From NCBI RefSeq assembly GCF_963506605.1, contig NC_083277.1:104470001-104534000 (forward strand): DNA of 64,000 bases. Direction: 5' to 3'. The stretch comes from Zootoca vivipara. Lineage: Eukaryota. A program made the position numbers and the translations under genes. Numbering within the stretch: position 1 is the stretch's first letter; each line of letters begins with the position of its first letter. Positions 3,871-5,743 of this stretch are shown piece by piece. Under the pieces are notes generated by a model. That model was given only the letters and a program-made list of their open reading frames with translations, did no database searches and had not been told where the DNA came from.

Positions 3871-4438
3871 TTCCCTCTCAATATCATCAATAGGACCCAG
3901 GAACCAGCACCTTAATACAACGCTGTGCGTTTCTCTTCTGTTGTTAGACTGGGTCACAGAACAGGAAAGAGAAAAATTGTTTCAAGACAGCAAGAGAGTT
4001 TACTGAACATGAGAACAGCGGCAGAATTGGGTAATGCAGTTGAGGGCAAAAATTGTAACCCCCTCCAAATATTTCTTATTTTCACTATAATTCCTTTCAG
4101 TACAGTCACTTTTTATGGATCTTCTCAGTAGGTACTCATATAATTGGTGGTTATAATATTTTGCGCTCCCTCAGCTCTCACACTGCCTTAAATCTGGCAA
4201 TGATAAGAACCTTCTTTCTCTCTTGCATTCTGCTTATAATGACCCTTTTCCTCCTTTCTACCGGTAATACCTTTTGAGTCCTGCTGCTGTGTATAAACGA
4301 TAAATTGCAAGAACTCAGGCCAAAAGAAGATGGATTTCAAATAAATCTTCACAAGGTTTTACTGATGTGATGCGGAGTTTAAATGGGAATCAATCCCAAT
4401 GTTGAAGGCAAATAAAGGTAAATTCCAGTAAAAATCAG

Positions 4439-4470
4439 GACAAGGCCCTGTTTCGACTATTCTTCGTCAG
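4439..4470 (-). ncRNA. Minimal hammerhead ribozyme motif (left arm)
   Basis: Reverse complement reads CTGACGAAGAATAGTCGAAACAGGGCCTTGTC. Confidence 0.65.
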
Positions 4471-4774
4471 CAAAGATTCACAGGTCAAAGTGTACCAAAT
4501 ATGTTTGCTGCAAACAATTTGAGCTAGCAAGGCAAACATATTTGGTACACTTTGACCTGTGAGGTTGAGGTTTTTTTAATTAGCTGTGATTTAACTGATA
4601 TTGAAAAAGTTGAGATGCCCACCACTTTCTCCCCTTGTGTAATGTTAATTCTGTGTAATGTGTCTGAATAGATGGATTTATTTATTTGCCTGAGATGAAG
4701 CACTGACAACATATAAAACAATCCTGCCTTGGGGTAATGTGTGTGCATTTTGCAGTTGCTAGAATATATCAATC

Positions 4775-4821
<47 letters not shown>

Positions 4822-4977
4822 ATCTATCATCTACCCATCTATCTTGTGACTGCATGCATATTTGGGAGGAGCTAAAATATCAGGACTGAAAAGCAAAGTG
4901 TACCAAATATGTTTGCTGCAAACAATTTGAGCTAGCAAGGCAAACATATTTGGTACACTTTGACCTGTGAATCTTTG

Positions 4978-5009
4978 CTGACGAAGAATAGTCGAAACAG
5001 GGCCTTGTC
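4978..5009 (+). ncRNA. Minimal hammerhead ribozyme motif (right arm)
   Basis: CTGACGAAGAATAGTCGAAACAGGGCCTTGTC; predicted cleavage after GUC at 5009. Confidence 0.65.
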
Positions 5010-5743
5010 CTGATTTTTACTGGAATTTACCTTTATTTGCCTTCAACATTGGGATTGATTCCCATTTAAACTCCGCATCACATCAGTAAAACCTTGTGAA
5101 GATTTATTTGAAATCCATCTTCTTTTGGCCTGAGTTCCTGCAATTTATCGTTTATTCCTGCTGCTGTGTATGCCACAATATTCTGGAAAGATCCAATGGG
5201 AAACAAAAGCAGCCTCTATATCCATCCAGCCATATGAATGGCTCCCTTTGGCCATTCAGAGTGAAGACAGCCTGGCAGAGAGGAGAGAGAGATGGATGGA
5301 CTGTTACTGTTGTGTCATCATCATCCTTATTCTCTGCCTGCGCCTTTGGCGGGAGAGAGCAACATGAGGAGCAGCACGCCACCAGCAAGGTCACCCTCTC
5401 ACAGCGCATGGCGTGGAGGGAGGGAGAGGATGGCAGAGATTCAGAAGTGGGTGCTCAGAACAATGGCAGCAGTCAGGAGAGGAGTGGGAGGAAATGAGAT
5501 CAGAGATAGCGTCAGAAGAAAGCAGAGTTCATGGGCACTGGAGATGGGGCCTCCCACCCTCTGCAGAAAGTAGCAGGATTCACCTGACAAGGTGCTGAAG
5601 GAAGCAGCCCTGGGGATGGATTTATCTATTGGCAGCTTCTGAGCCAAACAGACCTTATGGAAGGATGAACCACAGGCCAAGCATACGAAGGCGGCAGAGT
5701 GCCTAAGGACAAAGTGCAGGAAACCTGTAACTGGATATCGCAA

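What the first reader, a model, noticed from the sequence alone, without database searches (positions are those of the whole stretch)
4293..5155. Fold-back retroelement with a hammerhead ribozyme motif on each strand
Seen: ~215-bp near-perfect inverted arms, a 14-bp TSD, no coding capacity, and CUGACGA..GAAA..GUC in both arms (4439-4470 minus, 4978-5009 plus) with a 2-bp stem II and near-palindromic stem III; stem I pairs only imperfectly. Known: Penelope-like element pLTRs carry minimal hammerheads that cleave as dimers and often insert as inverted repeats. Inference: a young non-autonomous Penelope-type family in which a transcript from either strand contains one ribozyme plus its antisense, so it could either self-cleave or fold into a long dsRNA hairpin.
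Basis: partly seen in the sequence, partly recalled or inferred. Interest (0 to 1): 0.7.

Follow-up and report, generated by a model that had tools for sequence, protein, structure and literature searches.

The report
Spliced Penelope leader, copied twice
This hairpin is a likely dead insertion of a Penelope-type jumping gene: two mirror-image copies of the intron-less front end of its message sit around a patch copied from nearby host DNA, and the missing intron removes one stem of its self-cutting RNA, which is therefore predicted not to cut here.

Summary
Observation confirmed: 216-nt arms (215 pair), a 14-16 bp TSD and a hammerhead core in each arm. The arm is the 5' leader (pLTR) of a Neptune-type Penelope-like retrotransposon. 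Copies elsewhere join it to an RT/GIY-YIG frame, and one runs from the leader into the ATG. It is not a separate fold-back family: the 333-nt middle is host DNA from 4.15 kb upstream, framed by a 77-bp duplication of the inversion joint. The arm is a spliced form. Sister copies hold a GT-AG intron of about 330 nt ending at the ribozyme's first core base (113 spliced, 33 intron-keeping exact junctions), and spliced copies are not one clade (AU p=0.0001). The intron supplies stem I, so only 1 bp remains here. The antisense arm is always transcribed first, and no copy found starts at the cut. Likely origin: two cDNAs of one leader RNA, primed on both target strands and joined through a host-DNA patch. 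The architecture is published. The spliced/unspliced split, not found in seven paper searches, argues for sense-RNA templates and explains intron retention. This scan noted the same pattern earlier in other genomes.

The parts
4279..4292 (+). Left target-site duplication (14 bp; 16 bp if the two bases shared with the arm end count)
   Evidence: family TSDs mostly 12-18 bp
4293..4508 (-). Inverted arm: spliced leader from -38 to +178 (numbered from the first core base of the hammerhead), no tail
4439..4470 (-). Minimal hammerhead core of the left arm
4486..4562 (+). First copy of a 77-bp duplication of the inversion joint (20 nt of inverted arm, 3-nt overlap, 54 nt of leader reaching -8)
4563..4895 (+). 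Captured host DNA, same-strand copy of window 408-737 (2 substitutions, one 3-nt indel); 2-3 nt microhomologies at both ends
408..737 (+). Donor of the captured DNA, 4.15 kb upstream; it and the spacer are the only close matches found in the genome
   Evidence: 3 candidates: the two at 100%, one at 72%
4894..4970 (+). Second copy of the 77-bp duplication; its first 23 nt are leader -38 to -16 inverted
4914..5155 (+). Direct arm: spliced leader from -64 to +178 (exon 1 4914-4977, exon 2 4978-5155), ending at the family's proximal 3' end, no tail
4977..4978 (+). Exon-exon junction; sister copies carry a GT-AG intron here (326-341 nt in the copies parsed, 63 nt in one relative)
4978..5009 (+). 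Minimal type I hammerhead: intact core, 1-2 bp stem II, 12-nt self-complementary stem III, stem I cut to 1 bp; nominal cut after 5009
5156..5169 (+). Right target-site duplication

Best explanation
The 863-bp element is a likely dead insertion of a Neptune-type Penelope-like retrotransposon, made of two head-to-head copies of the element's spliced 5' leader that were likely reverse-transcribed from one RNA onto both nicked target strands and likely joined through a patch of DNA copied from 4 kb upstream; its hammerheads are predicted not to cut. SHOWN: the leader's identity, its link to the RT-endonuclease frame, the exact GT-AG intron loss, repeated origin of spliced copies, two fixed 3' ends (+178 to +187, and +211), a tail on at most one arm, the host origin of the middle, and the 77-bp duplication. 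INFERRED: (1) RNA starts in the pLTR mostly at -45 to -37, 25-33 nt after a TTTAAA, and loses its first intron. (2) The element protein binds its own leader and starts cDNA inside it, just before the ATG, so most products are only the leader. (3) Both target strands are primed, and each cDNA runs to or near the RNA's 5' end (-38 and -64 here). (4) The cDNA ends met at a 3-nt overlap and copied each other for 54 and 20 nt, then parted (each end can fold into a 31- or 23-bp hairpin). The top strand then copied 330 nt of nearby DNA and re-annealed, which gives the 77-bp duplication. (5) Long copies keep the intron because they come from read-through RNA whose downstream pLTR was not spliced. That form holds the 3-4 bp stem I, so the ribozyme is built for unspliced RNA and would cut as a dimer.
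For: Parent: L170 has ORF, exon 1 (98%), intron and exon 2 (97%). L162 has a 675-aa open frame with RVT_1 at E 4.8e-8, a linker CX2CxxC and a C-P-C GIY-YIG motif with two histidines. L243 has a spliced leader, hammerhead, tail and an ATG at +220, followed by RT frames 88% identical to L162. Splicing: donor and acceptor in L085 and in most of 30 intron loci; 113 against 33 exact junctions; both forms in at least 5 haplotype groups; one spliced clade rejected, p-AU 0.000114. 5' ends: 55 of 55 spliced insertions start at -64 to -20, 39 of them at -45 to -37 (21 of 30 loci in the pattern-picked sample). 8 of 9 pattern-picked unspliced copies that reach exon 1 run on upstream. 10 of 10 parsed ORF-linked 3' pLTRs keep the donor. 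Of 33 two-armed insertions, the tail is on one arm in 27, on neither in 6 and on both in 0 (5.5 expected, P 0.0024). In vitro, the anole PLE protein nicks and extends both strands from two internal start sites (PMC11167929). Both arms here share a variant seen in no other sampled insertion.
Against: No two-sided covariation in 13 hammerheads; the second pair of stem II fails in 5 of 13 and the fourth pair of stem I in 7 of 13. The acceptor CAG is constrained by splicing anyway, so its conservation does not prove stem I. The active fold is not favoured in any monomer, spliced or not. Pfam GIY-YIG does not hit this family's frame, and no full intact master copy was found. The joining steps rest on one junction sequence, and a later repair event would give the same product. 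One subfamily's exon 1 ends in TAG, which could keep a weak stem I after splicing. Neptune placement rests on the linker motif, not a tree.
Confidence: 0.72

Rival explanations
1. Two-step origin: a plain inverted-leader insertion (216-bp arms, 23-nt loop) came first, and a later break or stalled fork at the palindrome centre was repaired by template switching to DNA 4 kb away.
For: The 77-bp duplication spans the palindrome centre, where hairpins of -36 and -25 kcal/mol can form. 2-3 nt microhomologies fit host end-joining.
Against: The spacer differs from its donor at least as much (2 substitutions and 1 indel in 330) as the arms do from each other (1 in 216), so it does not look younger. 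13 other spliced insertions with inverted arms of 150 nt or more persist with gaps of 27 nt or less. The neighbouring family insertion also carries copied flank DNA.
Confidence: 0.14
2. One cDNA was made and folded back on itself (self-priming), so the second arm is a DNA copy of the first rather than a second reverse transcript.
For: The arms share a private variant. PMC3846280 proposes self-priming from palindromes at such joints.
Against: Second arms end mostly at the same +178 to +187 site as single-armed copies, which points to a programmed start rather than random stops. The arms here have different 5' ends (-38, -64). Both strands are extended in vitro.
Confidence: 0.09
3. One reading: a non-autonomous fold-back family that moves as a unit, whose RNA either self-cleaves or forms a hairpin.
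For: Perfect arms, a TSD, an intact core on each strand and a very stable hairpin.
Against: The spacer occurs only here and at its donor. Arm lengths differ at each locus. Stem I is 1 bp, the antisense arm precedes the ribozyme on both strands, and 0 of 5 candidate copies start at the cut.
Confidence: 0.03
4. The intron-less form is one subfamily descended from a single intron deletion in a master copy, so it says nothing about RNA templates.
For: Most spliced copies fall in one young haplotype, and the label is mildly clustered on the tree (27 changes against 33 shuffled).
Against: Both forms occur in at least 5 haplotype groups; starred branches force at least 8 changes and p-AU is 0.000114. 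No spliced copy extends upstream of exon 1.
Confidence: 0.02

Closest known systems
EN+ Penelope-like elements, Neptune clade; complex insertions (PMC8557442, passages and section 15 read)
   Same: RT plus C-terminal GIY-YIG with a linker CX2-5CxxC; pLTR with a hammerhead; inverted 5'-truncated copy; 30-40 bp tail at one end; intron in the 5' UTR.
   Different: That paper stresses intron retention and calls its significance unknown. Here most short copies have lost the intron exactly.
Adineta vaga Penelope insertions (PMC3846280, passages and Discussion read)
   Same: Inverted pLTRs with a TSD, palindromes at the joint, and unrelated DNA captured between solo pLTRs.
   Different: Its authors favour an antisense template to explain intron retention and leave the question open. 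Spliced copies here need a sense template, and the donor of the captured DNA is identified 4.15 kb away.
Minimal PLE hammerheads; D. virilis Penelope variant (PMC4209133, results and discussion read)
   Same: Extra base after A9, G10.1-C11.1, palindromic helix III, pairs on opposite strands 100-700 bp apart, and an intron end at helix I that defines spliced and unspliced ribozymes.
   Different: Helix II is only 1-2 bp. The intron ends right at C3 and supplies the whole 5' strand of helix I. Both forms are preserved as genomic copies.
Anolis Poseidon PAc (PMC11167929, main text read up to the Methods)
   Same: Two internal RT start sites that define the tail; both strands nicked and extended; cleavage not needed for insertion.
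   Different: PAc's ORF starts inside the hammerhead and its RT sites lie in the ORF. Here the ATG is at +220, after the tail, and the clade differs.
Animal non-LTR retrozymes (bioRxiv 10.64898/2026.07.22.740005, part 1 of 5 and passages read)
   Same: Non-coding, pLTR-related, type I hammerhead.
   Different: Retrozymes are head-to-tail tandem units with a ribozyme in each. This is head-to-head, with a TSD and a broken stem I.

Membership tests
EN+ Penelope-like element | Repeat linked to a PLE-type reverse transcriptase frame | tested here: met
   L162 675 aa, RVT_1 E 4.8e-8, DKG and RT motifs; L170 and L243 link arm and ORF
EN+ Penelope-like element | C-terminal GIY-YIG endonuclease with CCHH | tested here: met
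   Motif with C-P-C and two His; 31.6% identity over 678 aa, E 1e-97, to a frame that hits Pfam GIY-YIG; Pfam itself does not hit this frame
EN+ Penelope-like element | 30-40 bp tail, on one end only | tested here: met
   34-nt tail in the family; one arm 27, neither 6, both 0 of 33; this copy has none
EN+ Penelope-like element | Inverted 5'-truncated copy and TSD | tested here: met
   56 of 100 insertions have an inverted piece; a TSD of 8 bp or more was found in 46 of 100
EN+ Penelope-like element | Spliceosomal intron near the RNA start, in the 5' UTR | tested here: met
   GT-AG intron about 40 nt after the main 5' end cluster; 46 bp in D. virilis (PMC2377424)
Neptune clade | CX2-5CxxC motif between RT and endonuclease (shared with Nematis) | tested here: met
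   At residue 533 of the L162 frame (definition)
Neptune clade | Placement in an RT tree with reference clades | not tested
   No reference PLE proteins were at hand
Minimal type I hammerhead | Core CUGANGA, GAAA, NUH with G10.1-C11.1 and an extra base after A9 | tested here: met
Minimal type I hammerhead | Palindromic helix III that allows a dimer | tested here: met
   12-nt self-duplex at -18.9 kcal/mol; 98% of cells paired, G-U to A-U in 2 of 13
Minimal type I hammerhead | Helix I of 4-5 bp next to the core | tested here: not met
   1 bp in this spliced copy; 3 bp in unspliced sisters, 4 bp in 6 of 13 relatives
Minimal type I hammerhead | Compensatory changes in the stems | tested here: inconclusive
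   0 two-sided changes in 12 pairs; stems nearly invariant, loop II variable
Minimal type I hammerhead | Self-cleavage | not testable with these tools
   Indirect only: no copy found starting at the cut
Non-LTR retrozyme | Two or more head-to-tail units, each with a complete ribozyme | tested here: not met
   Head-to-head arms
Non-autonomous fold-back or MITE-like family (features recalled) | Many copies of one unit with fixed inverted ends and a fixed TSD length | tested here: not met
   Spacer unique; arm and TSD lengths vary

The most novel reading that the evidence does not exclude
Splicing is the off-switch of the Penelope hammerhead and sorts the element's RNA into two template classes. 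Promoter-started RNA is spliced, loses stem I, is translated and mostly leaves short leader-only insertions. Read-through RNA keeps the intron and the ribozyme in its last pLTR and gives the long, intron-keeping copies. A protein dimer uses its two start sites once each on one RNA to prime both target strands, which makes the inverted ends and the one-sided tail. Intron retention would then need no antisense template.
Probability: 0.4. Interest if true: 0.68.

Novelty: new member of a known kind. Interest (0 to 1): 0.42.

Why it matters
The insertion itself is ordinary debris of a known class. The family around it matters more. Penelope-like elements are known for keeping introns; one paper calls the reason unknown (PMC8557442) and another leaves open whether the template is antisense or unspliced sense RNA (PMC3846280). 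Here exact intron loss arose many times, so sense RNA is a template. The split between short spliced and long unspliced copies gives a simple account of intron retention. It also gives a natural pair of RNAs for testing the prediction in PMC4209133 that splicing changes the ribozyme. The junction records, base by base, how two cDNA ends were likely joined with local DNA.

Tried and rejected
Rfam found no hammerhead in the window or in four unspliced loci, only hairpin-type miRNA models far below their cut-offs. The Pfam GIY-YIG search of the genome returned a different, abundant PLE family; 0 of its 30 loci matched the arm. The PDB sequence search gave nothing under E 0.09. Run search: no RNA holder listed. 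Three raw RNA runs with the same species label and one contig set were laid on L105. Family reads came on both strands, most only 90-95% alike. The GT-AG joint appeared in 3 of 3 raw runs (6, 18 and 2 reads), with no pile-up of ends. Transcribed spliced genomic copies give the same joint and fragmented libraries hide cut ends, so this is not counted for splicing or against cleavage. An 18-nt motif from chimeric reads was not found in the genome. Three insertions flagged with gaps between the arms (L200, L212, L222) showed no local capture on inspection. A first de-duplication failed and was redone. DIRS-type inverted repeats and DNA-transposon ends were dropped (features recalled) because TSD length varies and the parent is a PLE.

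Full report
OBSERVATION. The arms are 4293-4508 and 4940-5155, 216 nt with one mismatch. A 14-bp direct repeat flanks them; two further bases are shared with the arm end, so the TSD is 14-16 bp. The hammerhead core is at the stated places. The loose pattern is not above chance in this window (26 matches, shuffled mean 15.5), and Rfam has no matching model, so the motif had to be judged by comparison. The longest ATG frame is 74 aa with no Pfam hit. Positions below count from the first core base, 4978 = +1.

THE ARM IS A DISPERSED YOUNG REPEAT. A genome search gave 619 candidates, of which 40 were scored; the 30 best matches are 97-100% identical. Copies end at +178 to +187, or carry a further tail to +211. 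In 100 insertions with an intact 3' end (104 found, 4 dropped as short), 33 of 53 spliced and 23 of 47 unspliced have an inverted piece at the 5' side, and 14 of 53 spliced have an inverted arm of 150 nt or more. A simple script found a TSD of 8 bp or more in 46 of 100, mostly 12-18 bp. Fold-backs are thus a routine by-product, different at each site.

THE MIDDLE IS HOST DNA. 4563-4895 copies window 408-737 on the same strand, with 2 substitutions and one 3-nt indel in a microsatellite. It has no other close match in the genome. It is framed by a perfect 77-bp repeat, 4486-4562 = 4894-4970, which is the inversion joint itself. Microhomologies are 3 nt at the inversion joint, 3 nt at entry and 2 nt at exit. 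Host duplications of 30 bp or more touching the element were seen at 5 locus ids among the 100 insertions. That scan saw only 1.5 kb of flank and would miss this donor.

THE PARENT. The Pfam GIY-YIG search found another family. Walking upstream from intron-bearing copies found the right one. L170 runs ORF, exon 1 (98%), intron, exon 2 (97%). L162 holds a 675-aa open frame with RVT_1 (E 4.8e-8), a linker CX2CxxC and a GIY-YIG motif with C-P-C and two histidines. Pfam GIY-YIG does not hit this frame. The linker motif marks the Neptune and Nematis clades (PMC8557442); no tree was built. L243 starts in exon 1, is spliced, passes hammerhead and tail, and reaches an ATG at +220 followed by broken RT frames 88% identical to L162; its 3' part is missing. 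The arm is therefore the 5' leader of the element's message.

THE ARM IS SPLICED. L085 and most of 30 loci found with its intron show exon 1, GTAAG, about 330 nt, a pyrimidine tract with CAG, then the core. Exact junction patterns give 113 spliced and 33 intron-keeping matches genome-wide, controls 0; both arms of one insertion count. Both forms occur in at least five haplotype groups. A tree of 101 exon-2 sequences rejects one spliced clade (p-AU 0.000114; at least 8 changes forced; bootstrap rough). All 55 spliced insertions start at -64 to -20, 39 at -45 to -37. The first 30 loci were picked with a query starting at -38, but the pattern-picked sample gives 21 of 30 loci. The spliced reference began at -64; the copies starting there match at most 13 of 30 upstream bases. 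A TTTAAA lies at -70 to -65; I looked for it after an earlier scan note. In D. virilis the intron lies 46 bp after the RNA start (PMC2377424). In contrast, 8 of 9 pattern-picked unspliced copies that reach exon 1 run further upstream. 10 of 10 parsed ORF-linked 3' pLTRs keep the donor; L169 was not parsed.

THE RIBOZYME. In 13 unspliced copies from diverged subfamilies the core, G10.1-C11.1, the 12-nt palindromic stem III and three stem I pairs are nearly invariant, while loop II varies in sequence and length. Against this, there is no two-sided change, the second stem II pair fails in 5 of 13 and the fourth stem I pair in 7 of 13. The 5' strand of stem I is the intron's last bases, so in the window only one pair is left. 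The active fold scores +6.2 kcal/mol here, against +1.7 and -1.6 in unspliced copies; none is the favoured monomer fold, while the stem III self-duplex is -18.9. Because the arms are head to head, a transcript of either strand makes the antisense arm first (from the sequence). Predicted arm-arm pairing over the ribozyme is at least 0.997. A pattern for copies beginning at the cut gave 5 hits, all with ribozyme sequence upstream; it misses copies with a chance C there or a mismatch. In the anole element, cleavage needs protein and is not needed for insertion (PMC11167929).

HOW IT LIKELY FORMED. Of 33 two-armed insertions, 27 have the tail on one arm, 6 on neither and none on both (5.5 expected). 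The anole protein nicks and extends both strands from two internal start sites and is predicted to be a dimer. I infer two cDNAs from one RNA, one per target strand; here both arms share a variant absent from the other sampled insertions. I took the two-cDNA-plus-patch reading from earlier scan notes and tested it only by these counts. The 77-bp repeat splits into 20 + 3 + 54 nt, as expected if the two ends annealed at three bases, copied each other, parted as hairpins, and the top strand then copied nearby DNA before re-annealing. Later repair of a plain palindrome gives the same sequence and is the main rival.

COMPARISON. It works like, and is, an EN+ PLE insertion. Inverted pLTRs, the one-sided tail, TSDs and captured DNA between solo pLTRs are described (PMC8557442, PMC3846280). 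Opposite-strand minimal hammerheads and an intron ending at helix I are described too (PMC4209133). It is not a retrozyme or a fold-back family. I found no paper reporting abundant spliced pLTR insertions or an identified local donor in seven searches. These cover open-licence papers only. I did not read any supplements (the alignments of PMC4209133 may hold this reptile-type motif), Arkhipova 2003 or 2006, or Repbase/Dfam. What I saw of each paper: PMC11167929 and PMC4209133, parts 1-2 of 4; the bioRxiv preprint, part 1 of 5 and passages; PMC8557442, passages and section 15; PMC3846280, passages and Discussion; PMC2377424, passages.

VERDICT. Real, and a new member of a known kind. The locus is likely inert; whether it is transcribed or polymorphic is open. 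Confidence: PLE leader 0.97; spliced sense RNA as template 0.92; ribozyme inactive here 0.85; single-event joining through a host patch 0.72. Interest 0.42, almost all from the family's bearing on intron retention and on how inverted ends form.

Noticed in passing
window 1770-2725: A second insertion of the same family 2 kb upstream: tailed arm 2113-2351 (-), short direct arm 2352-2470, a 22-nt element piece at 1786-1807, and a 253-nt inverted duplication of host DNA (1806-2058 / 2473-2725, 4 mismatches). Two copy-and-patch insertions this close may be one event or a hot spot.
   Followed up: partly
L110:44-266 / 2012-2234; L028; L029; L023: Long direct duplications of host DNA touching family copies (223, 61, 41 and 141 bp), well beyond the usual TSD. 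L023 holds two insertions 1.35 kb apart.
   Followed up: no
L094 and most of L034-L063: A second, far more abundant PLE family (2846 GIY-YIG candidates) with a different minimal hammerhead (about 5-bp stem II, 4-bp stem I); its 789-aa frame is 31.6% identical to this family's.
   Followed up: partly
L162, L085, L168: Intron length varies among relatives (63, 326, 341 nt) while donor and acceptor stay fixed; the long intron has weak internal inverted similarity.
   Followed up: no
L105:1424-1486, runs X13 and X14: 169 and 14 reads join part of an older exon 1 to unrelated sequence upstream, and many leave it near its splice donor. This may be a pLTR exon used in a host transcript; the downstream motif was not found in this genome.
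   Followed up: partly
window 31305-35707 (+): SCAN domain and C2H2 zinc-finger frames, likely one host gene about 26 kb downstream.
   Followed up: no
window 20731-21189 (-): Frame matching ribosomal protein S26e over 74 aa, perhaps a processed pseudogene.
   Followed up: no
window 3104-3159 / 3231-3286: Unrelated 56-nt inverted repeat, 89% complementary, 71 nt apart; perhaps a small DNA-transposon relic.
   Followed up: no
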